A DNA stretch of 32,000 bases from Thermosulfurimonas dismutans (GCF_001652585.1 NZ_LWLG01000006.1:62684-94683); one strand, 5' to 3'. Shown: positions 1 to 26,300, counted from the first letter of the stretch. The notes: a model not told the origin generated them from the letters alone. Numbers and translations are program-made.

Positions 1-1745
1 CTCAAGATGTAGTCCACCTTAACCCCGAGATCGTGGGCCATCTCAGGCTGATTAGTGGTATCCGCATGCCGACGGCCATACACAGTGTAACTGTACCAGG
101 AATAGTTCCAGGGATTATCCGGGTTCGAGTTCACTGGCGTATAATCCGTTCCCCCTACACTAGTGCCTATAGCCTCCTCCGGGCAAGCCGCGTGCTTGAA
201 GGCGTAAGGATCATCTACGTAGAGGAAGTTATAGTCCGCCTTCACCTTTAGACCAGCCATAGGCTTCCAGGTGGCGCCCAATTTGAAGAGGTGTTCTGTA
301 GTCTCATCGGTCACATGATGTTCTTCGGCGTTCTTACGATCAATGTATTCCAACTCATAACCAAATCTGAAGGCCAACTCCCGGGAATAACGCCAGGAAA
401 GATCTGCGGAGAAGATATACTCGTCCTCGTCGTAGGCGGACTTACGATTAAAACTGAAATCCTTGCCATCAATGGTGGGATCAGCGGGGTTGTAGTAAGG
501 GTCGAGCTGAATGTAAACATCATCACCGTCCATGGTGTGATACTTGGCCTTGACCGTGAGGCTCATATCCTTGCGAAGACGCCAATGCCAGTTGCCGGAG
601 AAAGCCAGGTAATCCACCTCAAGCTCTTCACCGGCATCTCCGTAGAGAAGACCGGAGCCACCCTCAGCTTCATCAGAGGACTCATTGGTGGCCTCGGAGT
701 AAACGAAACCAAGGTTAAGTATCTGGGAGGAAGAGATATCCCACTTGGCCTTCAGAGTGTGCTGCCACTTCTCGGATTCGGGCGTGCGCGCAAAGGGAAG
801 CTCGCCGTCGCTGTAGTCGTAGTTCAAGCCCCCCTCTCCCGGAAACTCTCCCGGGGCCAAACCAAAATCAGGCTTGAGGGCCGCCGCAGGATCGGTGGTA
901 GGGGCAGGCCCCTGGGCATTGAGATAGAGGTGGCGGGGAACGTCGCTGGAGGTGTTAAAGCTGCGATACATGAGGCTGTAACGCACCGTCCACCGGCCAA
1001 GACGGGCTTCAATGTACGGAATGTAATCATTGGTGTATTCCTCGATGTACTTGGAGTAAGCCGCTACGTGACAGCTAGAGCACTTGGAGACCGTACGGGC
1101 CTGATCCCAACCCTTGCGCTCCTCCATACGGTGAGTGAAGCCCAGCACCACACCGGGAACGGTAGGCAGACGCAAAATGGCGTCGTTTTTCCAGAGCGAG
1201 CGAGTTACCCCGTAATGGTGGACCTTCTCGTAGCTATCATGCCAAACCGCCGCCGAAGCTCCTTCCCAGACCCCATCATTATCAATATCTTTGACGTCTG
1301 GCATAGAAGACGGAGGAGTAAAGGTACTCGTATATTTTTCGGGATACCAAGTGCCACCCCGATATTCAGTAGCCGTGGCCTGGAGGTTCTCCATTAGGTC
1401 TCGGTCGAGCCTGTGATAGAACCTATAGTAGTTGCTCTTGAAAGAGAAAAGACGCCGAAAATCGAGGCTTCCGGAATACTCCTGATCGTTGACTTCAATG
1501 TAACGACCCTCAAGATTCAGGAGAAAATCTTTCTCGGCCAGACTGAACTTACCTCCTATATACCAGGAAGAGTCCATGTCCACTTGGCTTTTGTACTCTG
1601 CAGCCCGGTTGGGTACATCTCCGTAATCGTTTACCGAGGCCCCAAGGTTTACCTCTAGCTCGTAAGACTTCTCATCCTCGGCCCAGGCCTGGCTACATGT
1701 CAACACCAGACCTAGAGCCATCAACAATAAAATCAACCTCCTCAT
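1..1745 (-). CDS. Large outer-membrane beta-barrel-like protein, MtrB/PioB-like partner of the adjacent decaheme cytochrome. Partial: the C-terminus runs off the left edge. Not present in the supplied ORF track.
   Basis: I translated the minus strand by hand from the ATG at 1745-1743 down to position 3 and found no stop in 581 codons. A GGAGGAGG RBS lies just upstream (revcomp of 1750-1762). The N-terminus MRRLILLLMALGLVLTCSQAWA-EDEK is a Sec signal peptide with an AxA cleavage site. The body is Y/W/D/N/G-rich with alternating amphipathic stretches (for example LSWRYSRELAFRFGYELEYIDR and KLGATWKPMAGLKVKADYNFLYVDD), which is typical of OM beta-barrels. It sits 54 nt downstream of a decaheme cytochrome on the same strand. 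The function is inferred from context and composition only. Confidence 0.7.
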   Translation of the reverse strand, partial: MRRLILLLMALGLVLTCSQAWAEDEKSYELEVNLGASVNDYGDVPNRAAEYKSQVDMDSSWYIGGKFSLAEKDFLLNLEGRYIEVNDQEYSGSLDFRRLFSFKSNYYRFYHRLDRDLMENLQATATEYRGGTWYPEKYTSTFTPPSSMPDVKDIDNDGVWEGASAAVWHDSYEKVHHYGVTRSLWKNDAILRLPTVPGVVLGFTHRMEERKGWDQARTVSKCSSCHVAAYSKYIEEYTNDYIPYIEARLGRWTVRYSLMYRSFNTSSDVPRHLYLNAQGPAPTTDPAAALKPDFGLAPGEFPGEGGLNYDYSDGELPFARTPESEKWQHTLKAKWDISSSQILNLGFVYSEATNESSDEAEGGSGLLYGDAGEELEVDYLAFSGNWHWRLRKDMSLTVKAKYHTMDGDDVYIQLDPYYNPADPTIDGKDFSFNRKSAYDEDEYIFSADLSWRYSRELAFRFGYELEYIDRKNAEEHHVTDETTEHLFKLGATWKPMAGLKVKADYNFLYVDDPYAFKHAACPEEAIGTSVGGTDYTPVNSNPDNPWNYSWYSYTVYGRRHADTTNQPEMAHDLGVKVDYIL

Positions 1746-1799
1746 CCTAGCACCTCCTCCTATTTTTAAACTTTGGTTATTTCCCTGCATTTCAAACCC

Positions 1800-2858
1800 C
1801 TATCGGGTAAGCTTCTTACCCTGACCAGGAATGGTCTGAGACGGAAAGTCCGAACCGTGCACAGAAGGATGGCACTGCGTACACTTGGTAAGAAAGCTCT
1901 TCTGCCACCCCTCAGCTGTAGAGTGAATGTTAGGCGCCGAAGGATAACGCCAATCCTGGCCCACCGGATAACCTGCAGGATTAAAAGGATGGACCGTATC
2001 CTTATCGTTATACCTAGTGGCATGGAAGTGGACCTCATGACACTGCATGCACAGGAAGGGCTCGTTCTGCTTCAGCAGGTTGTTGGCCACCGCACCGTGG
2101 GGATCGTGGCAGATGGTGCAGTCCTCCACCACGGGCTCGTGTTCGAACACAAAAGGCCCCTGGTAGCGGGTATGACAGGTAAGACAAAGATCGTTCAACC
2201 GTTCCTCCGTTCTAAGCATGCCCGGGATGGGGTTACCCGTGCCATGAGGATTGTGACAGTCGGAACAGCCTAGGTGACCCTCCTTAACCGGGTGGTGAGA
2301 GGGGAAGAAGAGTTTGGACTGCACATCCCGGTGACAGGAAGCGCAGAGTTCAAGCTCGGCTTTGGCCAGCAGAGCCTCCCGCTTGTTCCCGTGCACTTTA
2401 TGACAGTCGGAACAGGCCACATCGTTTTCAAAGTGGGCAGAGAAGGCAAAGTGCATGGTCTCGCCGCCGGCGTGACAGGTCATGCAGACGGCACTGGCCT
2501 CCTCGCCTTCGAAGCCTTCCTCCCCGAAACGAATGATGGCTGAAAGTCCCTTTTCCGTATCGTCCTCCTGCATGGCCTCCACGTGCTTGGACCCCGGCCC
2601 ATGACAGCCCTCACAACCCTTGGCGTAGCCAGGAGCCTCATAATCCGCCAGTCTCAGGTGAACATTGGTCTTGGCATCCGCCGCGTAATCCTCGTGACAT
2701 TCTAGACAGGTTTCCGCACCCACATACTCTGCTCCCGGAGCCACTACCGGAGGTTTGAGGACCTGGGCCCGCTTCTCAGCTGCTTCCTTGGTACACGCTC
2801 CCAAAAAGAGAAGAAATACACCTAACAAGCCCGCCATCCATAGCTTTACCCTATCCAT
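1800..2858 (-). CDS. Decaheme c-type cytochrome, probable lipoprotein (MtrA/DmsE/PioA-like)
   Basis: Ten CXXCH motifs: CLECH, CEGCH, CMTCH, CSDCH, CASCH, CSDCH, CLTCH, CTICH, CMQCH, CTQCH. The GPFVFEHEPV...CTICHDPHG block is typical of the MtrA/DmsE family. I place the start at the ATG at 2858 (MDRVKLWMAGLLGVFLLFLGAC...) because GGAGGAGG lies 5 nt upstream. The track start at 2918 adds 20 residues in front of the signal peptide. LGAC forms a lipobox. Confidence 0.88.
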   Translation of the reverse strand: MDRVKLWMAGLLGVFLLFLGACTKEAAEKRAQVLKPPVVAPGAEYVGAETCLECHEDYAADAKTNVHLRLADYEAPGYAKGCEGCHGPGSKHVEAMQEDDTEKGLSAIIRFGEEGFEGEEASAVCMTCHAGGETMHFAFSAHFENDVACSDCHKVHGNKREALLAKAELELCASCHRDVQSKLFFPSHHPVKEGHLGCSDCHNPHGTGNPIPGMLRTEERLNDLCLTCHTRYQGPFVFEHEPVVEDCTICHDPHGAVANNLLKQNEPFLCMQCHEVHFHATRYNDKDTVHPFNPAGYPVGQDWRYPSAPNIHSTAEGWQKSFLTKCTQCHPSVHGSDFPSQTIPGQGKKLTR

Positions 2859-2889
2859 ACCAACCTCCTCCATAGATAATATCGCTAGA

Positions 2890-2918
2890 ATTTTGGCTAA
2901 CACCAAGGCAAAGGTCAA
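2890..2918 (-). promoter_or_regulatory. Candidate sigma-70-type promoter for the cytochrome/barrel operon
   Basis: On the minus strand: TTGACC (2918-2913), a 17-nt spacer, then CAAAAT (2895-2890), about 30 nt upstream of the 2858 start codon. Sequence match only. Confidence 0.25.
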
Positions 2919-5430: not shown

Positions 5431-7209
5431 TTATTCTGTGATCAAGATATAACGCACGTAACGAGGAGAGGGCGGGGACTCGGGATCGGCAAAAGCGTAT
5501 TCCTCCTCGAAACGGGAGGCCACAAACCTTAGAAAACTCTCGGTGAGTTCCGGGGCGTAGTAAAAGGTCTGTTGGGCGAGGCGCCTGAAGTTATCCAGAA
5601 GTTCCCGGAAAAGCTCTTCGGAAAACCGGTTTCTTTCCGAGTTAGAACGAACCTCCAGAAACCTTTCCAGAACTTCAGGCCACCTTTTCGCTGGAATAGG
5701 AGCAAACTTAAACTCCTGGGAAAGGACCCAGTTGGCCAATCCCGTAAGGATTAAGGCCGACCAGGTAATGTCCGAAGGTTCAAGGAAGTTGGTTTTTTGG
5801 GTAGCCATTTCCGCCACCCAAAGAGGCGGGATGCCAAAGGCCTTCTGAATAAGAACGGCCCAGTAACCGACTTCCTCAATGATCCTCTCCACCTGCCTTA
5901 CCTCGGAAAGCTCACGGAACCAGCGGTATTCCTCTGCGGTTCCGGCCTTATCCGGCACAAAAAACTTGATGCGGTTGGCGTCCCGTACCGTAACTCCTTT
6001 GAGATAGGAGGCATAGGGTTCATCAAGGTGTCTCAGGACACGGACATCCAGGTCCTCCTGAGAGCTGATTTCGCGAGCCTTTTTGCGAAGGCTTACGATC
6101 AGGGTGTGTGCTAGCCGGAAGATGTCCTCTAGGAAGTAAGTTTCAAGAATTCGTCGCCCAGCCTCTGGATCTGGCCCAGCTAGATATTCCAAACCGATAT
6201 TGAGATACCCCAAGACCTTATTTAAGGAATCCTCCACCTGGGCAATCTCGTCAATACTCACATGATCCACGATAAGGACCTTGTTGGTGATCCAGGCGAG
6301 CTCCCTTTTCAGGCGATCGAGCTGATGGGGATCCGTAATCCGAGAAAGGGCCTCGGAAAACCTCTCGGCCCCAGGATAATAAAGCGCCGGCACAAAACCA
6401 GGCGGGCTCTCTCCGGTTTCTTCTACTCGTCCGGGGAGGTAGCGCGGATCTATCCGACGAAGATGATTCTTGACTATTGGAGCGTAAACGTCCAAGGCCT
6501 CAAAGTAATCCGGAATCCCATGATCGGCCAGCCGCCCCCGACGCCAACGATAGGCCATCTCCTCTACCTGGGAGGGAAGCTCCCAGATGATGGCCTCCAT
6601 AAGGTTGTAGTAATAGTTCTCATCCATGTCCCGGATGATCTCAATGATGCGCCGGAAATAAAACTCAAGCTTTTGTTTTCTGAACTCCACGAAATAGACT
6701 TCATCTAAAGTATAGGGTGGGAGCCAGTCGCGGGCCTCGGTAAGATCTACATCGTCCGGGCGCTTCACTACCCGCACGAACCTTTGCATAATGGCTACCA
6801 GAAAATCGAAGTCCGCCACCCGAAGCCACTCGGCCACTTTGTCCTCAGAGGTCTCAAAAAGGAGAACTAGCCAGGCGGTAAACCTTTCAGGAGCAAGGCG
6901 ATCCTTCCGCCAGGCATCTATATCAAAAAGGAACTGAATTTGGGGCCCTTTGGCGTAGCTCAGGAGATCCACCGCTTCTTCCGTAGAGACGGCTTTGAGA
7001 GTGAGGAAAAGCTCCTGGGGAGGTAGGTTTTTTACCAGCCCTTCGGCCAGAGGCGAAAGCGTGATGACTCGGGCCCGGAGTTCCCAGGGAGTAGCAAGCA
7101 CAAGATCCATTTGCTCACGAAAACTGAGCTCCGTAAGAAGCTTTTCGGCCTCCTCCGCCGGCCGGGAGAGCAGGTCCTGATAGGTAACCGGAAGTTTACG
7201 TTCCGCCAT
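5431..7209 (-). CDS. Conserved hypothetical protein, 592 aa, largely helical, function unknown
   Basis: A long clean ORF with coding-like composition. Its start overlaps the yraN stop by 14 nt, which suggests the same transcription unit. The N-terminal ~110 aa resemble MgtE-N-type helical repeats, a weak impression only. I recognised no catalytic motif. Confidence 0.6.
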   Translation of the reverse strand: MAERKLPVTYQDLLSRPAEEAEKLLTELSFREQMDLVLATPWELRARVITLSPLAEGLVKNLPPQELFLTLKAVSTEEAVDLLSYAKGPQIQFLFDIDAWRKDRLAPERFTAWLVLLFETSEDKVAEWLRVADFDFLVAIMQRFVRVVKRPDDVDLTEARDWLPPYTLDEVYFVEFRKQKLEFYFRRIIEIIRDMDENYYYNLMEAIIWELPSQVEEMAYRWRRGRLADHGIPDYFEALDVYAPIVKNHLRRIDPRYLPGRVEETGESPPGFVPALYYPGAERFSEALSRITDPHQLDRLKRELAWITNKVLIVDHVSIDEIAQVEDSLNKVLGYLNIGLEYLAGPDPEAGRRILETYFLEDIFRLAHTLIVSLRKKAREISSQEDLDVRVLRHLDEPYASYLKGVTVRDANRIKFFVPDKAGTAEEYRWFRELSEVRQVERIIEEVGYWAVLIQKAFGIPPLWVAEMATQKTNFLEPSDITWSALILTGLANWVLSQEFKFAPIPAKRWPEVLERFLEVRSNSERNRFSEELFRELLDNFRRLAQQTFYYAPELTESFLRFVASRFEEEYAFADPESPPSPRYVRYILITE

Positions 7210-8541: not shown

Positions 8542-9840
8542 TTATCTTCCCTCCCCTAACAAGCGATCAATTATAATGCTAGCCGCTGATCTTACCGAAA
8601 GATGGTTATACTCGTCAAGTCTTCCGGAAATAGGTAAAAGGAAATAATGGCTCTTGTCAAGGACCTCATCGGCCAGTCCCCAGGCCGTGCCGAATAACAC
8701 CAAAACCGGTTTCCCGGAGAAAATAAGACCTCGGGCCTCTTCATAAGAAAAGGTCTTTCGCAGGGGCCTGGCATCGGTGGCCAGGATGACGGGATCGTGG
8801 CCTTCGATCTTTCGGATCTCTTCAATAACCTCATTCAAAGAATGAACCGGACGCACCAGGCTCAGGGCCTCGCGACGGTCGGGATTGTGCTTAGCCCCAG
8901 GACCTGAAAGCCAGAACTCAAGCATCTCCTCCATGATAGCCCGCTGGTCAGATAGGGGCTGCACGATAAAATAAGCCTTAAGGCCGTAAGTTCTCGCCAC
9001 CCGGGCAATGTCGTGGAGATCAAGATTGGTGAAGGAGGAGGCGATCTTGCGGCCTTCCTTGTTCAGAACCGGATAGTGAAGCAGAGCCGCGTAAACTTTG
9101 GCCTTACGAGCCTTCTCCCGTTTTAGCTTCTCTAAGAAGGCTCGGTCTTCATCGGTAAGCGAAGCCTTGGCCAAAAGATCAGGACGTTTCTCAAAGGTTA
9201 TTCGCAGGGATTCCTCTCGTCTGAAACGCTCAATACGGGCGTGGTCGCCAGAGAGCAAAACCTCTGGAACCGTGTAGCCCATAAAATCCCGAGGTCGGGT
9301 GTACTGAGGATGTTTCAGGAGGCCCTCGGCAAAGGAATCTCGCTTTACGGAATCCTCACACCCTACCACCCCGGGCACAAGACGTGCGACGGTCTCGATC
9401 AAGACCAGAGCTGCCGCCTCACCGCCGAAAAGGACATAGTCTCCGATAGAAATCTCGTCATCTACGAAATACTGCCTTATGCGTTCATCTATCCCCTCGT
9501 AACGGCCACAGATTAAGATTAAATGTTTCTTTGCAAGTAGCTCGCGGGCCACCTCCTGATTGAAAAGCCTTCCCTGAGGAGAGAGATAAACTACCCAGGG
9601 TTCGGGAGACTCTTTTTTCAAGGCTTCGATGGCACGATAGAGGGGTTCGGGTTTAAGCAGCATACCCTCCCCACCACCAAACGGCTTATCATCCACCGTG
9701 CGGTGCTTGTCGGTAGCAAAGTCCCGTAGATTATGGAGACGGACCTTGAGCAACCCTTTCTGGATAGCCTTTCCCAAGAGACCAACCTTCAGGGGAGACT
9801 CAAAATATTCCGGGAAAATGGTTATGAGATCGAAAACCAT
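8542..9840 (-). CDS. trmD: tRNA (guanine37-N1)-methyltransferase TrmD fused to a C-terminal second SPOUT-like RNA methyltransferase domain
   Basis: Residues 1 to ~245 are canonical TrmD ([48 protein letters not shown]). Residues ~248-432 form an extra domain ([14 protein letters not shown]...LLFGTAWGL...[17 protein letters not shown]) that resembles the TM1570-type SPOUT family. Confidence 0.88.
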
Positions 9841-16346: not shown

Positions 16347-17221
16347 AACCTTCCCTCATTGGTATTGTCGGCGGGCTGGGTAGAATGGGGGCCTGGTTCC
16401 GCCGAGTTTTTGAGGAAGCGGGATACACCGTTCTGGTCTCCGATCTCAATACCCCTTTGACCAACCGTGATCTTGCGGAAAGATGCGAAGTGGTAATTGT
16501 TTCCGTGCCCATGCCGGTCTTCCCGAAGGTCATTCGGGAAATAGGGCCTCATCTTCCTAAAAACGCCGGCCTCATAGACCTTTGTTCCTTAAAGGCCCGA
16601 GAAGTAAAACTCATGTTAGAGCACAGTACCTCTGAAGTGGTAGGGGCTCACCCTCTTTTCGGCCCATACGAAAAAGGTCTTCAAGGACAAACCGTAGCCC
16701 TTTGTCCGGCCCGGGGGCAAACCTGGTACCAATGGTTTAAGGACTTCCTAGAAGAAAAGGGCGCCCGTACGGTTACCGTATCTCCTGAAGAACACGACCG
16801 TATCATGAGCTTGGTCCAAGTCCTGAACCATTTTTGGCTCCTGGTACTCGGAAGGACCATTGAAAAAAGCAGGCTTTCTCTCGAAAAACTGGTGGCCCTT
16901 TCCACCCCTAGCTTCAAAAGACAGCTAGAAATCTTCTCTCGGCTGGCTCCTCAGGACCCCGAACTCTATGCCGCCATCCAGTTTGACAACCCTTTAGGAG
17001 ACGAAACTCGAAAGCTTTTCTGGCAACTCTCCAAAGAACTTTCCGAAATCATTGCCCATCGAGACCGCAAGACCTATATAGAGTATTTTAAAGATATGCA
17101 GATCTTAGCCCGAAAGGTAGGGACCTTCCTTTCGACCTCGGCGAATCCAAAACAGAAGCCCCCCCAAAACGACCATCAGGACACAGAAGACCTGTCCACG
17201 GGTCATCCAGCCAAACAGTAA
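16343..17221 (+). CDS. tyrA: Prephenate dehydrogenase
   Basis: An N-terminal Rossmann motif IGIVGGLGRMG, then VVGAHPLFGP and the SPEEHDRIMSLVQVLNHF blocks typical of TyrA. The last ~35 aa form a hydrophilic tail encoded antisense to the lgt 3' end. Confidence 0.85.
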   Translation: MKPSLIGIVGGLGRMGAWFRRVFEEAGYTVLVSDLNTPLTNRDLAERCEVVIVSVPMPVFPKVIREIGPHLPKNAGLIDLCSLKAREVKLMLEHSTSEVVGAHPLFGPYEKGLQGQTVALCPARGQTWYQWFKDFLEEKGARTVTVSPEEHDRIMSLVQVLNHFWLLVLGRTIEKSRLSLEKLVALSTPSFKRQLEIFSRLAPQDPELYAAIQFDNPLGDETRKLFWQLSKELSEIIAHRDRKTYIEYFKDMQILARKVGTFLSTSANPKQKPPQNDHQDTEDLSTGHPAKQ

Positions 17222-17902
17222 AGACACCCCTAGGTCTGGTTCTCGGAAAAATTCGATGAAGAAACGGATCAAACCATAAAGCACCATAAAAAGAGCCAGT
17301 TTTGTCCCCGAAGCCCAAGGTTTACGCCTTACGGACCAAAGCACAAGGAAGAGCACCAGGCCTTCCCCCAGAGCTTCGTAAAGCTGTGAAGGATGTCGCG
17401 GCACCGGGCCACCGGCCGGAAAGATCATGGCCCAGGGAACATCCGTAGGTCTGCCGAAAAGCTCTCCGTTTATAAAGTTTCCTAAGCGGCCGAGACCAAG
17501 ACCTATGGGGACCGTGACCACCAGAAGATCCGCCCACCAGAAGAAGGAAAGCCGATGTCGACGGGCATAAAGCCAGCCCGCTACCACCGCTCCGATAAGC
17601 CCTCCGTGAAAGGACATCCCTCCGTGCCAGACGGCAAAGATCTCAAGCGGATTCTTGAGGTAATAACCAGGATAATACAAAAGGACATGGCCCAATCTGG
17701 CCCCGACAATGAGGCCCACTCCTCCCCAAAAAAGGACGTTTTCGAGCACAGGATAGAGCTTCTTAAGCCCTCTTTCTCGGAGTTGATAACGGGCCAAAAA
17801 ATAGGCCGCCAGGAACCCTAAAAGATACATCAGTCCGTACCAGCGAACGGCCAAAGGACCAACCCTAAAGATTTCAGGATCTATACGGGGATAAGGAAGC
17901 AT
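17105..17902 (-). CDS. lgt: Prolipoprotein diacylglyceryl transferase
   Basis: RWYGLMYLLGF, WHGGMSFHGGLIG, GRLGNFINGELFGRPT and HPSQLYE motifs. I prefer the ATG at 17902 (MLPYPRIDPEIF, with GGAG 3 nt upstream) over the track start at 17950. Confidence 0.9.
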   Translation of the reverse strand: MLPYPRIDPEIFRVGPLAVRWYGLMYLLGFLAAYFLARYQLRERGLKKLYPVLENVLFWGGVGLIVGARLGHVLLYYPGYYLKNPLEIFAVWHGGMSFHGGLIGAVVAGWLYARRHRLSFFWWADLLVVTVPIGLGLGRLGNFINGELFGRPTDVPWAMIFPAGGPVPRHPSQLYEALGEGLVLFLVLWSVRRKPWASGTKLALFMVLYGLIRFFIEFFREPDLGVSLLFGWMTRGQVFCVLMVVLGGLLFWIRRGRKEGPYLSG

Positions 17903-17993
17903 GTCTCCATTATAAAACATGTTTTTTGGACGCAAAGCCTGGATCGTCAAATTTTTGGCTTTATCTTTTTAGAAAAAGGGGGAGGTAAGGACT

Positions 17994-20759: not shown

Positions 20760-20825
20760 AGATCGCAAATCAATTAAGGGTTGCTTTATAGGCGAAGGGG
20801 TTTATAGTTGAGGAAGGGGGAAAGG

Positions 20826-22163
20826 ATGAAAAAAGGCTTATGGTTGCTACTCTGGCTTTGTTTTTGGCCGGGCTTCCTTAAAGCCGAGACCTTAACTTTA
20901 TCAAAGATTTATGAGTTGGCCTTAAGCAGGCACCCTTTGATCCGGGCGGCTGAGGCCGAGGTTGAGGCCGCTAGGGCCGGAGTGCGCGAAGCCAAGGGGG
21001 CCTTCTTGCCACAGATCGATCTCCGAGAGCTTTACGCTCGCACGGACAGCCCGCCCCAGGTCTTTTCTTACAAGCTCGCTCAAAAGAATTTTAAACCGGA
21101 GGACTTTTTAATCGATCGTTTGAACCATCCTACAGACTATTCCAACTGGAAGACACAGCTGGTAATCACCCAACCCATCTTCAATCAAGGCAGGGAAATC
21201 ATAGGCTATCGCAAGGCCATGGTGGCCCTTTCGCAGGCGGAAGACTATCTTCAGGCGGTGCGGCATCGGGTCCTTTTCGAGGCCGAGTCTGCCTACCTCA
21301 GATTAAGATTGGCTCAGGAAAGAGTAGCCGTCTTGGAAGAGGCCGTACGGACTGCCAGGGAGAACCTTCGAGTGGTGGAGAGGCGATATGCCGCGGGCCA
21401 GGCCCTCAAGTCCGACCTTCTGGAAGCTCAGGTCTTCCTCTCCAGGCAGGAAAAGGATCTTGAGTCTGCCAGACACGAGCTCGAGGTGGCGGCCTCAGCC
21501 CTGAACTTGGCCTTAGGGCTTCCGCTCGACACTCGGTGGGAGATCCCAGAGGAGGCTATTCAAGTCCCCAAGGAGATTAAGTCACTCGAAAACTGGTTAA
21601 CCCTTGCCCGTCAGAATCGACCGGATCTCAGGATCATAAAACACCGAAAGCGTCTCTCTGAGCTCGATCTCAAGGAAGCCCGCTATCGGTTCCTGCCCTC
21701 GCTTAATCTCAAGGGTATCTACGAGAAGAACTCCGAAGATCCTCTAGGGGGAGGCGCCGATGGCGAAGCTTACATCTTCTTGGCTGAGCTAAATTTCAAT
21801 CTCTTCAAAGGTTTCCAAGACAAGGCTCGGTTGGCTAAAGCCAGGGCTAGGCTCCTCTCGGAAAAAGAGAAACTCCGACAATACCAGCGAGAGGTGGAAC
21901 ATCAGGTACGGGAAGCCTATAGTCGTCTCCTTACGGCCCGGAGAGAAGTAATGGTCACAGAGAAGGCCGTAGCTCGGGCCGAGGAGGGCTTAAGGATCAT
22001 ACGTAAACGGTACGAAGCCGGACTTTCGCTTCTGGTGGAACTCCAAGATGCCGAAACAGCCCTGAAACGGGCGCGACTTCTCCATCTGGAAGCTCTTTAC
22101 GGTGAGAGGCAGGCCTTTAGCCGTCTGCGCTACGTCTCGGGAACTATAGGAGGCACACCATGA
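20826..22163 (+). CDS. TolC-family outer-membrane efflux protein
   Basis: Signal peptide MKKGLWLLLWLCFWPGFLKA, then two repeated coiled-coil halves typical of OEP/TolC. The ATG at 20826 is preceded by GGAAGGGGGAAAGG. The track start at 20808 is a TTG. Confidence 0.85.
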   Translation: MKKGLWLLLWLCFWPGFLKAETLTLSKIYELALSRHPLIRAAEAEVEAARAGVREAKGAFLPQIDLRELYARTDSPPQVFSYKLAQKNFKPEDFLIDRLNHPTDYSNWKTQLVITQPIFNQGREIIGYRKAMVALSQAEDYLQAVRHRVLFEAESAYLRLRLAQERVAVLEEAVRTARENLRVVERRYAAGQALKSDLLEAQVFLSRQEKDLESARHELEVAASALNLALGLPLDTRWEIPEEAIQVPKEIKSLENWLTLARQNRPDLRIIKHRKRLSELDLKEARYRFLPSLNLKGIYEKNSEDPLGGGADGEAYIFLAELNFNLFKGFQDKARLAKARARLLSEKEKLRQYQREVEHQVREAYSRLLTARREVMVTEKAVARAEEGLRIIRKRYEAGLSLLVELQDAETALKRARLLHLEALYGERQAFSRLRYVSGTIGGTP

Positions 22164-23320
22164 AAATTTTCAAATGGTTGGTTCCGATCTTTCTGGTGGT
22201 CTTTCTCTCGGCCTGTGGTCATCGGGAATCCGAAACCGAAAGACCCAAAGGCCGGACCATTAAAGCCGAGCTCTATACGACTTCCACGGTAGAAATCTCC
22301 CTCCTGCGCGAGCTTCCGGGAACGGTGGAGGCTAAGGTGCGGGCCAAACTCTCTTCCAAGGTGGCTGGATTCTTGAAAGAAATCCGCGTAGAAGAGGGCG
22401 ACCGGGTCAAAAAAGGCGATCTCCTGCTAAGGATCGAGGATCGAGATATCAGAGATAAAATAAGGGCTTTGAGGGCGGGCATTTTAGCTGCCCAAAAGGA
22501 TCTTGCGGAGGTTTCGGCCCGACTGGCTTTTGCCCGGGCAGAATTTGAGCGCTACCGCAAACTTTTTGAGGAAGAAGCTGTCACGGCTCAAGAGTTCGAA
22601 GCCAAAAAATCCGAATACGAGGCCCTCTCGGCCAGAAAGGGAGCCCTTTCGGCTCGCATCAAAGAGCTTCGAGCCAGGCTTTCGGAAGCCGAAAGCCTTC
22701 TACCTTACACTACCATTCGGTCTCCCTTCGATGGCCAGGTCCTGCGCAAATGGGTAGATACCGGAAGTTTCGTTAATCCCGGCCAGCCTTTACTTGAAAT
22801 CGAGGACACCACTTCGGGAAGGAGGGTGGTCTTCCATCCTGAGGAAACTTTATTTTCTACGATAAAACCAGGGCTCGAAGTCTTCGTACGATTTCCGGCA
22901 AAAGGTAAGGCCTTAAGGGTTTGGATAACGGAAGTGGTCCCGGAGGTAGATCCCCAGACCCGGACCTTCACCGCCAAGGCCGATCTTCCCAAGAATTACC
23001 AGGTATTGTCTGGAAACTATGTGCAAGTGTTTGTCCCCACAGGCAAGACTTCAAGGATTCTGGTACCGAAAACGGCCCTAATCAATCGGGGAGGATTCTA
23101 CGGCGTCTTCGTAGCCGACAAAAGTGGCGTTCTTCACTTTCGGGTCATTCGCATCGGAAAAACCTTCTATCAGGAAGGTGCAAACTTTCTGCCGGTCTGT
23201 CTGAAGACCGATTGTAAGGCTTATGTAGAAGTCCTTTCCGGTCTCCATCCTGGGGAAAAAGTGGTGGTCAAGCCTCCGGAGGGCGTTCGCGAGGGAGATC
23301 GGATAGCCGAGGGAGCTTAG
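22160..23320 (+). CDS. Efflux RND transporter periplasmic adaptor subunit (HlyD/MFP family), lipoprotein
   Basis: LSAC lipobox, a biotinyl-lipoyl-like motif (VEEGDRVKKGDLLLRIED), a coiled-coil hairpin, and IRSPFDGQV. A 4-nt overlap links it to the upstream gene. Confidence 0.88.
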   Translation: MKIFKWLVPIFLVVFLSACGHRESETERPKGRTIKAELYTTSTVEISLLRELPGTVEAKVRAKLSSKVAGFLKEIRVEEGDRVKKGDLLLRIEDRDIRDKIRALRAGILAAQKDLAEVSARLAFARAEFERYRKLFEEEAVTAQEFEAKKSEYEALSARKGALSARIKELRARLSEAESLLPYTTIRSPFDGQVLRKWVDTGSFVNPGQPLLEIEDTTSGRRVVFHPEETLFSTIKPGLEVFVRFPAKGKALRVWITEVVPEVDPQTRTFTAKADLPKNYQVLSGNYVQVFVPTGKTSRILVPKTALINRGGFYGVFVADKSGVLHFRVIRIGKTFYQEGANFLPVCLKTDCKAYVEVLSGLHPGEKVVVKPPEGVREGDRIAEGA

Positions 23321-23323
23321 GAA

Positions 23324-26300
23324 ATGGTAGATCGCGGCGGTTTCATTGCTCGCATAACGGAATACTTCGTAGACTCCAAACTCACACCTCTTATCATCCT
23401 GGCCATGCTCTGCCTGGGAGTAATGGCCATCGTGAACACTCCCAGTGAAGAGGAACCCCAGATCGTAGTCCCCATGATCGACATTTTCGTGGAGATGCCG
23501 GGAGCCACAGCAGAAGAGGTGGAAAAGCGGGTCGTCACTCCTATGGAAAAGCTCCTCTGGGAAATACCGGGAGTGGAATACGTATATTCCACGGCCTACA
23601 ATGGACGGGCGCTTACGGTAGTGCGTTTCTATGTGGGCGAAGACACCGAAGAGAGTCTAGTCAAGACCTATACCAAGCTCTATCAGCATTTGGACTGGAT
23701 CCCTCCGGGTTGCTCCCATCCCATTCTGAAACCACGTTCCATTGACGACGTCCCTATCGTGACCCTCACCTTTTGGGGAGAGGGTTATGACGCCTTCCGA
23801 CTGCGCCAGATCGTAGCCCGGGTGGACGACGAGATCCGCAACATCCCGGGGATCTCAGAAACCTTCATCAAAGGGGGGCTGAGGCGCGAGGTCCGAATAG
23901 AACTTGAACCGGACCGAATTTATGCCCTAGGGCTTGATCCCGTAGACGTAGCCCAGGCCATCTATACCCAAAACAAGGCCCGAGTACTGGGTGAGTTCCG
24001 TCAAAACTCGCAGAGTTTTCAGGTTCGCCTTGCCAATTTCTTTTCGGACATTCGGGATCTGGAAAACACGATCATAAAAACCGTAGCCGGCCGGCCGGTT
24101 TATCTCAGGGACGTTGCCCGGATCGTGGACGGACCCGAAGAGCCTGAAAACTATGTCTTCATGGTACCCGGGCCGGCGGCCAAAGCTAAAGAGATAGAAG
24201 GTGAGCTCGGGAAACTCTATCCTGCGGTAACGCTTGCCGTCGCCAAGCGCAAGGGTTGGAACGCCACTCGCCTGGCCGAAAAGATCCTCCAAAAAGTGGA
24301 AGCCCTTAAGGGGGATCTCATCCCCGAGGACCTCAAGATCACCGTCACCCGCAACTATGGAGAGACCGCCCGGGAAAAGACCAACGAGCTCCTAGAACAC
24401 CTCCTCATCGCCACGGTTTCGGTAGCGGTCTTAATAGCCCTCTTCCTAGGGGTGCGGGCCAGCCTGGTAGTCTTGGTGGCCGTACCGGTAACCTTGGCCA
24501 TTACCCTCTTTGTTTACTGGTTCTATGGCTATACCCTGAACCGGGTCACCCTTTTTGCCCTAATATTCTGCATCGGTATTTTAGTAGATGACCCCATCGT
24601 GGACGTGGAAAACATCGTCCGCCATCTTCATCTCCCGGAAAATGCTGGGCGTCCTTTCCGGGAGGTCATCATTCGGGCGGTAAACGAAGTCCGGGCCCCC
24701 CTTATCCTGGCCACCTTTACAGTCATTGCGGCTATTGCTCCTATGGGATTCGTACGGGGACTTATGGGCCCCTATATGCGCCCCATGCCGGTAGGCGCTT
24801 CGGTGGCCATGCTCCTTTCTATGGTGGTGGCCTTTGTGATCACCCCTTGGACAGCCTACCACCTCCTTCCCCGGAACATTAAACACGAACACCGCGAGAC
24901 CCTCCTCACCCGCTACTATCGTTGGCTGATGGGGCACCTTATACGCAGTCCTCGCTGGCGCTGGACCTTTCTCTTCATGGTGGGAGGGCTCTTTTTCCTC
25001 TCTTGCTCCCTTATTTATTTCAAACTGGTCTATGTGAAAATGTTACCCTTTGACAATAAGAGCGAATTTCAGGTGCTCATCGATATGCCGGAGGGGACCA
25101 CCCTTGAAACTACGGCCAGGGTGGCCGAGGAGGTGGCCCGTGCGTTAATGGAGGAACCCTATATCACGGATATGGAACTCTACATTGGTACGGCGGCCCC
25201 CTTCAATTTCAACGGGCTTATCCGACATTACTATCTCCGGCAGGGAGATCACGTAGCCGACATTCAGGTAAACTTGATCCCCAAACATGAAAGAAAACTC
25301 CAGAGCCACGACATCGCCAAAAGGGTAAGGCCTCTGGTGGTAGAGGTAGCCCGCAGATACGGGGCCAGGATTACGGTGGCCGAAATACCCCCTGGGCCTC
25401 CCGTGCTTCAGTCGCTCGTGGCCGAGGTCTACGGGCCGGATTACAAAAAACAGATCGAGCTGGCCCGAAAGATACGAGAGATCTTTGAGAACACCCCCGG
25501 TGTAGTGGATGTGGACTGGTACATGACCGAACCGCAAATCGAATGGCGTCTGGTCATAGACCGTAAGAAAGCGGCCCTCTCCGGAATTACACCGGAAAGG
25601 GTACTTTCGGCTATGGAAATAGCTCTCCCAGGAAAGATCCTGGGCCTCTTCCATGATCCCAAAGCCAAAGAAGATGTCTTTCTCAAGCTCCGTTTCCCTC
25701 AAGCTGAAAGGTCAGCTTTACCAGACCTCTCTGAACTTAAGGTCAGGAGCTTTTCCGGAGAACTGGTCTCAGTCTCAGAGATAGCCCGTTGGGAGAAGAC
25801 GGTGGTGCCCCATCCCATTTACCACAAGAACCTCCACCGAGTGGTCTATGTGGTGGGAGATCTCGCCGGAAAAGAAGAGGCTCCGGTTTACGGTATATTC
25901 AAGATCAACCAGGCTCTGAAAGATCTCAAAGCCCCGGACGGAGGCCCCATCAAAATTTACTATACCCGCCTTCCCTTCTCAGAGAGGGAGTGGGCCATAA
26001 AATGGGACGGGGAGTGGCATGTAACCTATGAAGTTTTCCGGGATCTGGGGCTGGCTTTCGGGGCCTGTCTGATCCTCATCTATCTCCTGGTAGTGGCCTG
26101 GTTTAAATCCTACACCGTACCGCTGGTGATCTTGGCCCCTATTCCCCTTTCCTTGATTGGTATCCTTCCGGCCCATGCCCTCATGGGGGCCTTCTTTACG
26201 GCCACCTCCATGATCGGTTTCATTGCCGGGGCTGGTATTGTAGTGCGGAATTCCATCATTCTTGCGGACTTCATTGAACTTCGCCTTAAAGAGGGCTACA

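What the first reader, a model, noticed from the sequence alone, without database searches (positions are those of the whole stretch)
1..2858. MtrAB/PioAB-type porin-cytochrome pair: a decaheme lipoprotein followed by a large beta-barrel ORF
A 10-CXXCH cytochrome of about 330 mature residues has the same heme density as MtrA/DmsE/PioA/MtoA. It is followed 54 nt downstream on the same strand by an ORF of at least 581 aa with a signal peptide and OM beta-barrel composition. This is the gene order of the trans-outer-membrane electron conduits described in Shewanella (mtrAB), Rhodopseudomonas (pioAB) and Sideroxydans (mtoAB). Here it sits in a genome whose other genes look like a thermophilic anaerobe, where such conduits are poorly characterised. 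It could mediate extracellular electron transfer to minerals, sulfur or a syntrophic partner. The barrel gene is missing from the supplied ORF track because it has no stop inside the window. No MtrC-like extracellular cytochrome is visible, but the operon continues past the left edge.
Basis: partly seen in the sequence, partly recalled or inferred. Interest (0 to 1): 0.75.

Follow-up and report, generated by a model that had tools for sequence, protein, structure and literature searches.

The report
MtrAB-like conduit with heme-selenocysteine barrel
The window holds a real two-gene outer-membrane "electron wire" (a ten-heme cytochrome plus a large barrel protein) from the vent bacterium Thermosulfurimonas dismutans. 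It is already named in public databases, and its unstudied feature is that the barrel has its own heme-binding site and, just past the window edge, almost certainly a selenocysteine.

Summary
On the minus strand, 2858-1800 encodes a 352-aa lipoprotein with ten CXXCH motifs. After a 54-nt gap, an ORF with a signal peptide starts at 1745 and runs off the window after 581 codons.

The window is Thermosulfurimonas dismutans. GenBank already calls the two proteins "MtrA" and "MtrB". They pass the curated NCBIfam models GSU2203 (OmcK) decaheme cytochrome and GSU2204 CXXCH-containing (seleno)protein. The literature calls this pair the putative OmcKL conduit.

The cytochrome is a clear MtrA homologue (PDB 6R2Q_A, E 4e-44). 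Two barrel relatives were modelled; the high-confidence one has 26 strands, and MtrB (6R2Q_B) is the top match for both, by 6 and 14 orders of magnitude. A ten-heme gene lies directly upstream of the barrel gene in all 31 related loci with upstream sequence (28 complete).

- The barrel has a near-universal KCxxCH heme motif.
- The annotated 650-aa protein stops at a conserved UGA. Relatives read through it, with a SECIS-like hairpin and Cys in non-Sec orthologues. The true product is about 794 aa (TDIS_1111 plus TDIS_1110).

No MtrC-like gene follows in relatives.

Verdict: a real but already catalogued system whose function has never been tested. Moderate interest.

The parts
2890..2918 (-). 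Promoter-like site (TTGACC, 17-nt spacer, CAAAAT) about 30 nt upstream of the cytochrome start codon
   Evidence: Consensus scan. The number of such sites is no higher than in shuffled sequence, so this is only a candidate.
2864..2871 (-). Ribosome-binding site GGAGGAGG of the cytochrome gene
   Evidence: Read directly from the sequence.
1800..2858 (-). Decaheme c-type cytochrome gene. The product is 352 aa and is TDIS_1112 by inference from consecutive accessions (OAQ20823.1 / WP_068670157.1). It is an MtrA homologue of the GSU2203 (OmcK) family.
   Evidence: NF041028 490.6 bits (cut-off 325) and TIGR03508 250.6 bits (cut-off 192.2). PDB 6R2Q_A E 3.8e-44. Exact-sequence look-up.
2793..2858 (-). 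Signal peptide and lipobox (LGA-C22) of the cytochrome. The Cys22 codon is at 2795-2793.
   Evidence: Sequence. By inspection of the N-termini printed, a lipobox Cys is present in all 15 Thermodesulfobacteriota and Nitrospirae homologues (the script's pattern flagged 12) and absent from the 11 Aminicenantes-type ones.
1869..2708 (-). Region carrying the ten CXXCH heme-binding motifs (C51 to H330)
   Evidence: Translation. Paired_CXXCH_1, 128.9 bits.
1746..1799 (-). 54-nt intergenic spacer with the barrel gene's ribosome-binding site, GGAGGAGG at 1753-1760
   Evidence: Sequence.
1..1745 (-). 5' part (581 codons) of the outer-membrane barrel gene of the GSU2204 family. It is annotated as TDIS_1111, 'Cytochrome c family protein MtrB', 650 aa. 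The gene continues left of the window for 69 codons, then an inferred UGA (Sec), then about 143 more codons (TDIS_1110).
   Evidence: 100% identity to P0001. NF041027 434.9 bits for the partial sequence and 511 bits for the 650-aa protein, cut-off 350. Pfam MtrB_PioB 46.4 bits (cut-off 23). Models of family members match MtrB.
1680..1745 (-). Signal peptide of the barrel protein (residues 1-22, predicted cleavage AWA|ED)
   Evidence: Sequence.
1068..1082 (-). Single CXXCH motif of the barrel (C222-S-S-C225-H226, within ...QARTVSKCSSCHVAA...)
   Evidence: Invariant in alignment A1 and in 33 full-length members. Present exactly once in 142 of the 150 best family representatives.
1413..1415 (-). 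Codon of His111, the only other invariant histidine in the barrel family and a candidate distal heme ligand
   Evidence: Invariant in 33 of 33 full-length members. Its role as a ligand is inference.
225..806 (-). The only stretch of the barrel (residues 314-507) that sequence models recognise as MtrB/PioB-like
   Evidence: PF11854 profile positions 219-397 of 635.

Best explanation
This is a self-contained two-gene operon of Thermosulfurimonas dismutans. It encodes a porin-cytochrome electron conduit of the OmcK/GSU2204 ('OmcKL') type, a sister system of MtrAB, PioAB and MtoAB.

How it most likely works:
- The first product is a ten-heme MtrA homologue. It is made as a lipoprotein and most likely anchored in the inner leaflet of the outer membrane.
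- The cytochrome threads into the second product, an MtrB-fold barrel. The high-confidence model of a family member has 26 strands.
- Electrons then move across the outer membrane along the ten hemes.
- Unlike MtrB, the barrel has one c-type heme-binding motif of its own (C222-x-x-C225-H226) at the tip of an extra-long hairpin.
- About 70 codons beyond the window edge it also has a selenocysteine, at the tip of a second extra-long hairpin. Both tips lie on the predicted extracellular side.
- The barrel therefore probably supplies an eleventh heme as the exit or entry point, doing the job a separate MtrC-type cytochrome does in Shewanella. The Sec residue would be a redox-active group at the cell surface.

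Shown here: the family identities, the homology to MtrA, the MtrB fold of family members, the strict gene pairing, and the Sec/Cys column with its SECIS-like hairpin in relatives.

Inferred: threading of the cytochrome into the barrel, heme attachment to the barrel, the extracellular position of the two hairpin tips, the UGA in T. dismutans itself, and the physiological electron partner.
For: Cytochrome:
- NF041028 490.6 bits against 325, and TIGR03508 250.6 against 192.2.
- Best solved-structure match is MtrA of the MtrCAB complex, 6R2Q_A, E 3.8e-44.

Barrel:
- NF041027 434.9 bits for the partial sequence and 511 bits for the 650-aa protein, against 350. The model ends exactly at the protein's last residue.
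- AlphaFold models of two family members give MtrB (6R2Q_B) as the top Foldseek hit: E 4.7e-14, and E 9.1e-24 with TM 0.67/0.74. The next hits are at 3e-8 and 2.5e-9.
- The high-confidence model (pLDDT 90.1) has 26 strands.

Gene pairing:
- A cytochrome gene lies immediately upstream of the barrel gene in all 31 loci with upstream sequence: ten-heme and 308-358 aa in 28, cut by the contig end in 3.

Heme motif:
- CXXCH occurs exactly once in 142 of the 150 best representatives. Only 2 full-length members lack it.

Selenocysteine:
- 18 loci have an in-frame TGA after '..YHG', followed by a conserved continuation of about 140 aa ending in an aromatic residue.
- Cys occupies that column in 12 non-Sec full-length orthologues.
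- All 18 Sec-type loci have a hairpin at a fixed offset, 16 of them with 6-8 uninterrupted pairs, and with 12 different complementary arm pairs overall. The 8 Cys/Gly loci show no hairpin at that offset.
- T. dismutans TDIS_1110 (OAQ20821.1) is 77% identical to that continuation. Its accession directly follows those of the barrel (OAQ20822.1) and cytochrome (OAQ20823.1), and all three are recorded on a contig of the same length, 94,683 bp.
- T. dismutans is listed as having another Sec-containing cytochrome (PMC13510729).

Literature:
- OmcK/GSU2204 are up-regulated with hematite and magnetite in Geobacter (PMC4070692).
- OmcKL is described as a putative porin:cytochrome conduit in partners of methane-oxidising archaea (PMC10553843).
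Against: - No member of this family has been characterised biochemically. Heme in the barrel, Sec incorporation and complex formation are all untested.
- The T. dismutans DNA left of the window could not be retrieved. The TGA and its hairpin are inferred for this organism, not seen.
- The barrel does not reach the curated MtrB/PioB model (TIGR03509 32.6 bits against 240). A sequence profile of the family finds no MtrB in the PDB.
- The structural models are of relatives, about 50% and 24% identical, not of the T. dismutans protein. No coordinates were available, so distances between the heme site, the Sec and the lumen are unknown.
- By strand count the two hairpins sit 12-14 strands apart, on roughly opposite walls of the barrel.
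- T. dismutans disproportionates sulfur held inside alginate beads, so it needs no direct contact with the solid substrate (PMC4911364). No extracellular electron-transfer phenotype for it turned up in the papers read.
Confidence: 0.7

Rival explanations
1. The complex is an outer-membrane redox enzyme rather than a passive wire. The barrel's heme and selenocysteine would form, or flank, a catalytic site at the cell surface. That site would reduce or oxidise a chalcogen substrate (polysulfide or elemental sulfur, selenite or tellurite, possibly metal sulfides). The decaheme would only deliver or remove electrons.
For: - Sec is retained in most of the family: at least 102 of the 132 long representatives stop exactly at the Sec column. 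Where it is not Sec it is mostly Cys. From general knowledge of selenoproteins, that Sec/Cys pattern is typical of a catalytic redox residue.
- A precedent for heme plus Sec chemistry on sulfur exists: MccSep/ExtKL uses a Cys-ligated heme and an essential Sec to reduce polysulfide (PMC13510729).
- Many Sec-type hosts are sulfur-cycling Thermodesulfobacteriota and Nitrospirae.
- The T. dismutans clade has an extra Cys seven residues before the Sec position (C644, U651), which could form a selenenylsulfide.
- Both hairpin tips lie on the same predicted side of the barrel.
Against: - By strand count the two hairpins are 12-14 strands apart, on roughly opposite walls. Nothing shows that the heme and the Sec touch.
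- CXXCH is kept in members that have lost the Sec/Cys (P0011, L011, P0092), so the heme does not depend on the Sec.
- The upstream Cys and the His of 'YHG' are not conserved across the family.
- T. dismutans does not need contact with sulfur.
- No substrate evidence of any kind exists.
Confidence: 0.2
2. The barrel's CXXCH does not bind heme. It would be a structural or redox-sensing thiol motif comparable to the N-terminal CXXC of Shewanella MtrB. The complex would then be a plain ten-heme MtrAB-type conduit.
For: - From my own knowledge, not checked here: MtrB proteins carry a conserved CXXC needed for function.
- No heme-containing outer-membrane barrel has been shown experimentally.
- Attaching heme to a protein that the BAM machinery must later fold would be unusual.
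- In the lower-confidence model the motif region has pLDDT below 50.
Against: - The histidine after the second Cys is as invariant as the cysteines (33 of 33). The full motif K-C-x-x-C-H-V is what is conserved. A thiol-only motif would not need that histidine.
- NCBI curators name the family 'CXXCH-containing'.
- The motif is at residue 222, not at the N-terminus.
Confidence: 0.08
3. The decaheme is a soluble periplasmic electron carrier or reductase, for example the missing nitrite reductase suggested for TDIS_1112 in the genome paper. The neighbouring barrel would be an unrelated porin.
For: - The genome paper lists TDIS_1112 among periplasmic multiheme cytochromes that might replace NrfA (PMC4911364).
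- There are weak NrfB-like hits.
Against: - NrfB models score far below their cut-offs (51.6 against 184; 38.8 against 166.6).
- The homology to MtrA is strong.
- The pairing with the barrel holds in all 31 loci across several phyla.
- Models of barrel family members have the MtrB fold.
Confidence: 0.02

Closest known systems
OmcK (GSU2203) and GSU2204 of Geobacter sulfurreducens, the 'OmcKL' putative conduit of Ca. Desulfofervidus (HotSeep-1) and Seep-SRB2
   Same: - Both proteins pass the NCBIfam models named after these Geobacter genes.
- The gene order is the same, with no adjacent periplasmic or extracellular cytochrome gene.
- The barrel has one CXXCH and is a (seleno)protein.
- The literature treats the pair as a porin:cytochrome conduit (PMC10553843). 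It is induced by iron-oxide minerals in Geobacter (PMC4070692).
   Different: - The host is a thermophilic sulfur-disproportionating member of the Thermodesulfobacteria, with no reported extracellular electron-transfer phenotype.
- Murali et al. treat OmcK as the extracellular partner. Here its homology to MtrA (the component that sits inside the barrel) argues that it is the wire within the barrel.
- Direct identity to the Geobacter proteins was not measured.
MtrCAB of Shewanella (PDB 6R2Q)
   Same: - The decaheme aligns with MtrA over residues 46-282 and 325-341 (E 3.8e-44).
- Models of barrel family members superpose on MtrB (E 4.7e-14 and 9.1e-24, TM up to 0.74), and the better one has 26 strands, as MtrB does (26 for MtrB is from my own knowledge).
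- The cytochrome gene precedes the barrel gene.
   Different: - There is no MtrC-like gene.
- The cytochrome is a lipoprotein in this clade.
- The barrel is only remotely related in sequence (TIGR03509 32.6 bits against 240; no PDB hit with a sequence profile).
- The barrel has a CXXCH motif and a selenocysteine.
PioAB (Rhodopseudomonas) and MtoAB (Sideroxydans)
   Same: Both are two-component systems of a decaheme and a barrel with no surface MtrC-type cytochrome (general knowledge). The Pfam MtrB_PioB model is passed (46.4 bits against 23).
   Different: - Those systems take up electrons from Fe(II) in phototrophs or lithotrophs.
- The curated MtrB/PioB model TIGR03509 is not reached.
- No heme motif or Sec is described for those barrels (own knowledge, not checked here).
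MccSep / ExtKL (GSU2937-2936), a pentaheme selenoenzyme that reduces polysulfide
   Same: - It combines c-type heme with a Sec or Cys residue.
- It occurs in overlapping taxa, including T. dismutans (TDIS_RS01570).
- Its gene was also split at the UGA in older annotations (PMC13510729).
   Different: - It is a soluble periplasmic tetramer with an unrelated fold, and the two are not homologous.
- It serves here only as a chemical precedent, not as a family assignment.
Geobacter porin-cytochrome clusters (OmaB-OmbB-OmcB, ExtABCD and others)
   Same: They follow the same principle of an outer-membrane barrel plus multiheme cytochromes for transfer across the membrane (PMC10553843).
   Different: - Those clusters have separate periplasmic and extracellular cytochromes and smaller barrels.
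- The present pair has one MtrA-like cytochrome and a large barrel (26 strands in the best model) that carries a heme motif itself.

Membership tests
GSU2203 (OmcK) family decaheme c-type cytochrome (NCBIfam NF041028) | Score at or above the curated cut-off of 325 bits over the full model | tested here: met
   490.6 bits. Residues 13-352 match model positions 3-317 of 317. RefSeq gives the identical sequence this name.
GSU2203 (OmcK) family decaheme c-type cytochrome (NCBIfam NF041028) | Ten CXXCH motifs | tested here: met
   Ten motifs counted in the translation. The 28 complete homologues next to barrel genes all have ten.
GSU2203 (OmcK) family decaheme c-type cytochrome (NCBIfam NF041028) | Gene lies next to a GSU2204-family barrel gene | tested here: met
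   54 nt upstream of the barrel gene in the window. The same arrangement holds in all 31 loci with upstream sequence.
DmsE/MtrA family decaheme cytochrome (TIGR03508) | Score at or above the curated cut-off of 192.2 bits, and homology to a solved MtrA structure | tested here: met
   250.6 bits. 6R2Q_A E 3.8e-44.
GSU2204 family CXXCH-containing (seleno)protein (NCBIfam NF041027) | Score at or above the curated cut-off of 350 bits | tested here: met
   434.9 bits for the 581 residues in the window. 511.1 bits for the 650-aa protein, matching model positions 2-580 of 580.
GSU2204 family CXXCH-containing (seleno)protein (NCBIfam NF041027) | A single conserved CXXCH motif | tested here: met
   C222-S-S-C225-H226 at window 1082-1068. 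Invariant in alignments.
GSU2204 family CXXCH-containing (seleno)protein (NCBIfam NF041027) | In-frame UGA (Sec) or Cys at the end of 'part 1', followed by a C-terminal continuation of about 140 aa | tested here: inconclusive
   The site lies about 210 nt beyond the window, and the contig could not be fetched. Indirect support is strong. P0001 ends at '..YHG' exactly where 18 relatives have TGA. The next annotated gene, TDIS_1110, is the continuation (77% identity, consecutive accession).
GSU2204 family CXXCH-containing (seleno)protein (NCBIfam NF041027) | Covalently bound heme and incorporated selenium in the protein | not testable with these tools
   This needs heme staining, 75Se labelling or mass spectrometry.
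MtrB/PioB decaheme-associated outer-membrane protein | TIGR03509 score at or above the curated cut-off of 240 bits | tested here: not met
   32.6 bits, covering only residues 379-506. 32.0 bits for the 650-aa protein.
MtrB/PioB decaheme-associated outer-membrane protein | Pfam PF11854 score at or above the gathering threshold of 23 bits | tested here: met
   46.4 bits, but only residues 314-507 match profile positions 219-397 of 635.
MtrB/PioB decaheme-associated outer-membrane protein | Large (26-strand) beta-barrel fold like MtrB | tested here: met
   Tested on two relatives, not on the T. dismutans protein itself. P0075 model: pLDDT 90.1, 26 strands, 6R2Q_B E 9.1e-24, TM 0.67/0.74. P0011 model: 6R2Q_B E 4.7e-14.
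MtrB/PioB decaheme-associated outer-membrane protein | The decaheme cytochrome sits inside the barrel | not testable with these tools
   No multimer prediction or model coordinates were available.
MtrCAB-type three-component conduit | An adjacent gene for an MtrC/OmcA-type surface decaheme lipoprotein | tested here: not met
   No other multiheme gene lies within 9 kb in any Thermodesulfobacteriota locus. Downstream genes in relatives encode SMC, an IS200 transposase, RsmB and MutS2. The T. dismutans downstream sequence itself was not seen.
NrfB pentaheme nitrite-reductase subunit | Score at or above the curated cut-offs (184 and 166.6 bits) | tested here: not met
   51.6 and 38.8 bits.

The most novel reading that the evidence does not exclude
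The GSU2204-type barrel would be the first outer-membrane selenoenzyme. Its covalently bound heme and its selenocysteine would sit on long hairpins at the outer mouth of an MtrB-like barrel. The threaded decaheme would wire them to the periplasm. Together they would catalyse a surface redox reaction on sulfur or selenium species (polysulfide, colloidal sulfur, selenite, tellurite or metal sulfides). In T. dismutans that would be an extracellular entry or exit step of sulfur disproportionation, a pathway whose first step is still unknown.
Probability: 0.2. Interest if true: 0.85.

Novelty: already known. Interest (0 to 1): 0.4.

Why it matters
GenBank calls these T. dismutans proteins MtrA and MtrB. 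NCBI has curated family models for both. The OmcKL pair has been discussed as a conduit in the bacterial partners of methane-oxidising archaea.

What makes the locus worth a second look is that no member of the family has been studied experimentally, and the barrel is unusual. It is an MtrB-fold outer-membrane protein with its own heme-binding motif and a selenocysteine. If both are real cofactors, this would be a porin-cytochrome conduit that needs no separate surface cytochrome, and it might carry a catalytic selenium site at the cell surface.

There is also a practical point. The T. dismutans deposit splits the gene at the UGA (TDIS_1111 and TDIS_1110). More than 100 of the 150 best family representatives are truncated at the same column. 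Analyses that use those gene calls miss the last barrel strands.

Tried and rejected
- **Extending the contig leftward.** Exact-protein look-ups for the cytochrome, the barrel and the neighbouring DAHP synthase found no record. The UGA in this organism therefore rests on the annotated neighbours.
- **Sequence-profile search of the PDB with the barrel family.** No MtrB hit, only an insignificant match of the CXXCH region to a diheme cytochrome (E 2.8). The link to MtrB comes from the fold, not the sequence.
- **RNAalifold on an ungapped alignment of the region after the UGA.** It gave only 4 pairs because the loop length varies. Folding each sequence separately and comparing the arms was used instead.
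- **Literature search for 'OmcL'.** It mostly found the OMCL clustering algorithm.
- **Proteomics and genome papers on sulfur disproportionators.** None mentions this pair. TDIS_1112 appears in one paper only, as a generic periplasmic cytochrome.
- **MccSep/ExtKL as the identity of this locus.** Rejected: it is a different protein at a different locus (TDIS_RS01570).
- **The 368-aa plus-strand ORF at 291-1397.** Rejected as an antisense shadow of the barrel gene.
- **tRNA and Rfam scans of the window.** Nothing found.
- **Distance between the heme motif and the Sec.** It could not be measured because the structure tool returns no coordinates.

Full report
**1. The observation**

- On the minus strand, an ATG at 2858 follows a GGAGGAGG site. 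It opens a 352-codon frame that ends at TAG 1802-1800.
- The product has ten CXXCH motifs. Its N-terminus, MDRVKLWMAGLLGVFLLFLGAC, is a lipoprotein signal, so the mature protein has 331 residues.
- After 54 nt containing a second GGAGGAGG site, an ATG at 1745 opens a frame with a cleavable signal peptide (…SQAWA|EDEK).
- That frame is still open after 581 codons, at the left edge of the window.

**2. Where it comes from and what is already recorded**

The 581 residues are 100% identical to a 650-aa protein of Thermosulfurimonas dismutans (P0001). An exact-sequence look-up gives three consecutive GenBank accessions, each recorded on a contig of the same length, 94,683 bp:
- OAQ20823.1 is the cytochrome, named "Decaheme cytochrome c protein MtrA". 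RefSeq WP_068670157.1 names it "GSU2203 family decaheme c-type cytochrome".
- OAQ20822.1 is the barrel, named "Cytochrome c family protein MtrB".
- OAQ20821.1 is "hypothetical protein TDIS_1110".

By numbering, the barrel is TDIS_1111 and the cytochrome TDIS_1112. The genome paper mentions TDIS_1112 only as one of several periplasmic multiheme cytochromes that might stand in for a missing nitrite reductase (PMC4911364).

**3. The cytochrome**

- It passes NCBIfam NF041028, the GSU2203 family (490.6 bits, cut-off 325), and TIGR03508, the DmsE/MtrA family (250.6 bits, cut-off 192.2).
- NrfB models fall far short (51.6 bits against 184).
- Its best match among solved structures is chain A of 6R2Q, the MtrA subunit of the Shewanella MtrCAB complex (E 3.8e-44 over residues 46-282, plus the last heme motif). 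The tool's table mislabels that chain.
- GSU2203 is OmcK of Geobacter sulfurreducens.

**4. The barrel**

- The window fragment passes NF041027, "GSU2204 family CXXCH-containing (seleno)protein" (434.9 bits, cut-off 350).
- It passes Pfam MtrB_PioB, but over residues 314-507 only (46.4 bits against 23).
- It fails the curated MtrB/PioB model TIGR03509 (32.6 bits against 240).
- A sequence profile of the family finds no MtrB in the PDB.

The fold settles the relationship.
- An AlphaFold model of the 767-aa relative P0011 has pLDDT 68.6. Its top Foldseek hit is MtrB (6R2Q_B) at E 4.7e-14.
- A high-confidence model of the 723-aa relative P0075 was built from a 122-sequence alignment (pLDDT 90.1, pTM 0.86). 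It has 26 strands.
- That model matches MtrB at E 9.1e-24 with TM 0.67/0.74. The next hits are 22-strand TonB-dependent receptors at 2.5e-9.

The barrel is therefore MtrB-like in fold but belongs to a distinct sequence family. A whole-library HMM search finds 577 cluster representatives at E ≤ 0.001, 362 at ≤ 1e-10 and 180 at ≤ 1e-30, out of 1.84 billion.

**5.

*A heme motif in the barrel.* The barrel contains one CXXCH (C222-S-S-C225-H226, window 1082-1068) inside a strongly conserved stretch, …QARTxSKCxxCHV….
- It is invariant in 33 full-length members from several phyla.
- It occurs exactly once in 142 of the 150 best representatives. Five of the seven that lack the motif are fragments missing that region, and only two full-length members lack it. 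One further representative has two.

*A selenocysteine just past the window edge.* The annotated 650-aa protein ends "…MLCAAVYHG", which is not a normal barrel C-terminus. The evidence that this stop is a Sec codon is as follows.
- In 18 related loci the same column is followed by an in-frame TGA. A conserved continuation of about 140 residues then ends in an aromatic residue (…YRF, …WSF), as outer-membrane barrels usually do.
- Non-Sec full-length orthologues have Cys at that column in 12 cases, Gly in 3, and other residues in 3 diverged members.
- All 18 Sec-type loci have a G+C-rich hairpin at a fixed offset, its 5' arm ending 25-26 nt after the U of UGA. The stem has 6-8 uninterrupted pairs in 16 of them.
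- The apical loop begins AG, GG or GT, and there are 12 different arm sequences, each with a complementary partner. The 8 Cys or Gly loci show no hairpin at that offset. From my own knowledge, this fits the bacterial SECIS pattern.
- The NCBIfam model, named "Se_pt_1", ends exactly at the last residue of P0001.
- At least 102 of the 132 long representatives stop at this same column.
- For T. dismutans itself, the next annotated gene, TDIS_1110 (139 aa), is 77% identical to the continuation in the closest relative and ends …FITWSF.
- T. dismutans is listed as encoding another Sec-containing cytochrome (PMC13510729).

The real product is therefore about 794 residues, split into two genes by annotation. 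I could not see the T. dismutans codon itself. The family is listed as a selenoprotein in a 2026 review, with no function given (PMC13188914).

**6. Gene pairing and neighbourhood**

- In all 31 related loci that include sequence upstream of the barrel gene, a cytochrome gene lies immediately upstream. It has ten hemes and 308-358 aa in 28 loci and is cut by the contig end in 3.
- In the Thermodesulfobacteriota loci no other multiheme gene lies within 9 kb.
- A Thermosulfurimonas genome from a metagenome is fully syntenic with the window. The order is RNase HII, DUF6178, radical SAM, DAHP synthase, then cytochrome, barrel and its C-terminal piece. A small ORF and SMC follow.
- On the other side, the window continues with housekeeping genes.

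The unit is a self-contained pair. What lies beyond the left edge is the rest of the barrel gene, not an MtrC-like cytochrome.

**7. Topology (inference)**

Assume the C-terminus is periplasmic, as in other outer-membrane barrels, and count hairpins back from strand 26 in the confident model.
- Short turns fall on the periplasmic side and long loops on the outside, as expected.
- The CXXCH (residues 190-194 of P0075) sits at the tip of an extra-long hairpin formed by strands 7 and 8 (21 and 25 residues).
- The Cys equivalent to Sec (residue 580) sits at the tip of another extra-long hairpin formed by strands 21 and 22 (24 and 26 residues).
- Both tips are on the extracellular side. The lower-confidence model agrees on the side.
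- The two hairpins are 12-14 strands apart, so they sit on roughly opposite walls. Whether they lean together over the pore cannot be told without coordinates.
- His111 is the only other invariant histidine. It lies at the outer end of strand 5 and is a candidate second heme ligand.

**8. How it most likely works**

- The MtrA-type decaheme is lipid-anchored in this clade. Read from the N-termini printed, a lipobox Cys is present in all 15 Thermodesulfobacteriota and Nitrospirae homologues and absent from the 11 Aminicenantes-type ones.
- It threads into the barrel and carries electrons across the outer membrane.
- The barrel's own heme would be the eleventh redox centre at the outer mouth, taking the role that MtrC's contact heme plays in Shewanella.
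- The Sec or Cys would be a surface redox-active residue.
- The partner is unknown. Geobacter induces the pair on hematite and magnetite (PMC4070692). HotSeep-1 expresses it strongly in methane-oxidising consortia (PMC10553843).
- T. dismutans grows on sulfur enclosed in alginate beads (PMC4911364). A contact-dependent sulfur reaction is therefore not essential, although soluble polysulfide remains possible.

The main rival is that the complex is a surface selenoenzyme rather than a wire. The precedent is the heme-plus-Sec polysulfide reductase MccSep. Against it, the heme motif persists in members that lost the Sec or Cys, and nothing shows that the two sites are close.

**9. Comparison with what is known, and novelty**

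- The pair works like MtrAB, PioAB and MtoAB, and belongs to the GSU2203 and GSU2204 families.
- It is not a member of MtrB/PioB proper, and it lacks an MtrC.
- Both proteins are already named in GenBank and NCBIfam. The conduit has a name in the literature, and the Sec is catalogued.

I therefore rate the finding as already known, with moderate interest. The reason for that interest is that no member has been tested, and a barrel carrying both heme and selenium would be unusual.

**10. Limits**

- The structural models are of relatives, not of the T. dismutans protein.
- The loci came from a scan whose search pattern required the CXXCH motif, so they are biased towards it. The HMM-based representative search is the unbiased check.
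- The T. dismutans UGA is inferred.
- Heme binding, selenium incorporation, threading of the cytochrome and the physiological role are all untested.

Noticed in passing
Just left of window position 1 (T. dismutans TDIS_1111 / TDIS_1110; P0001, P0024): The deposited annotation splits the barrel gene at the presumed Sec codon into a 650-aa 'MtrB' and a 139-aa 'hypothetical protein'. At least 102 of the 132 long family representatives in the protein library are truncated at the same column.
   Followed up: yes
Window 1-1745 compared with L004/L035 6123-7988 and with L001: The barrel diverges much faster than its neighbours. Against the syntenic Thermosulfurimonas genome, the cytochrome is 80% identical, DAHP synthase 89% and DUF6178 78%, but the barrel only 49.5%. 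A different relative (L001) has a 69% identical barrel with a 77% identical cytochrome. This suggests either two barrel lineages exchanged between close relatives or strong diversifying selection on a surface protein.
   Followed up: partly
L020 3056-14028 and L023 7689-17411 (Aminicenantes-type loci): In these Cys-type loci the decaheme-barrel pair sits among additional large multiheme cytochrome genes (8, 11 and 17 hemes in L020; 11 and 21 hemes in L023). The Thermodesulfobacteriota loci have none. The pair may serve larger extracellular cytochromes in those organisms.
   Followed up: no
Barrel residues C644 and U651 (beyond the window); alignment: The T. dismutans clade has a conserved Cys seven residues before the Sec position (C-x3-Y-H-G-U). 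This could form a selenenylsulfide. The Cys is absent from the Desulfobulbales-type and Aminicenantes-type members.
   Followed up: partly
Window 8542-9840 (-): A 432-aa protein fuses a TrmD tRNA (m1G37) methyltransferase domain (residues 23-220) to a second SAM-dependent RNA methyltransferase domain (PF09936, residues 248-429).
   Followed up: no
Window 26558-27388 (+) and 27372-28727 (+): A gene for a CcsA/ResC-type cytochrome c assembly protein overlaps the start of hemA (glutamyl-tRNA reductase) by 17 nt. Heme synthesis and cytochrome maturation genes are thus linked about 24 kb from the conduit.
   Followed up: no
Window 17105-17950 (-): This is lgt (prolipoprotein diacylglyceryl transferase), the enzyme that would lipidate Cys22 of the decaheme lipoprotein.
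   Followed up: no
Window 5431-7209 (-): A 592-aa DUF6178 protein (559 bits) keeps the same position near the conduit pair in the Thermosulfurimonas metagenome genome. Its function is unknown.
   Followed up: no
Window 20808-26533 (+): A three-gene RND efflux operon: an outer-membrane factor, a membrane-fusion protein and a 1069-aa AcrB-type pump.
   Followed up: no
PDB 6R2Q chain A in the output: The molecule name shown for the MtrA chain of the Mtr complex is 'Cystathionine beta-synthase'. This appears to be a labelling error in the table. From my own knowledge, the entry is the MtrCAB structure, and one search lists it as 'Structure of the Mtr complex'.
   Followed up: no
Window 291-1397 (+): A 368-aa ORF lies on the strand opposite the barrel gene. 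It is an antisense shadow ORF in a G+C-rich coding region, not a gene.
   Followed up: partly
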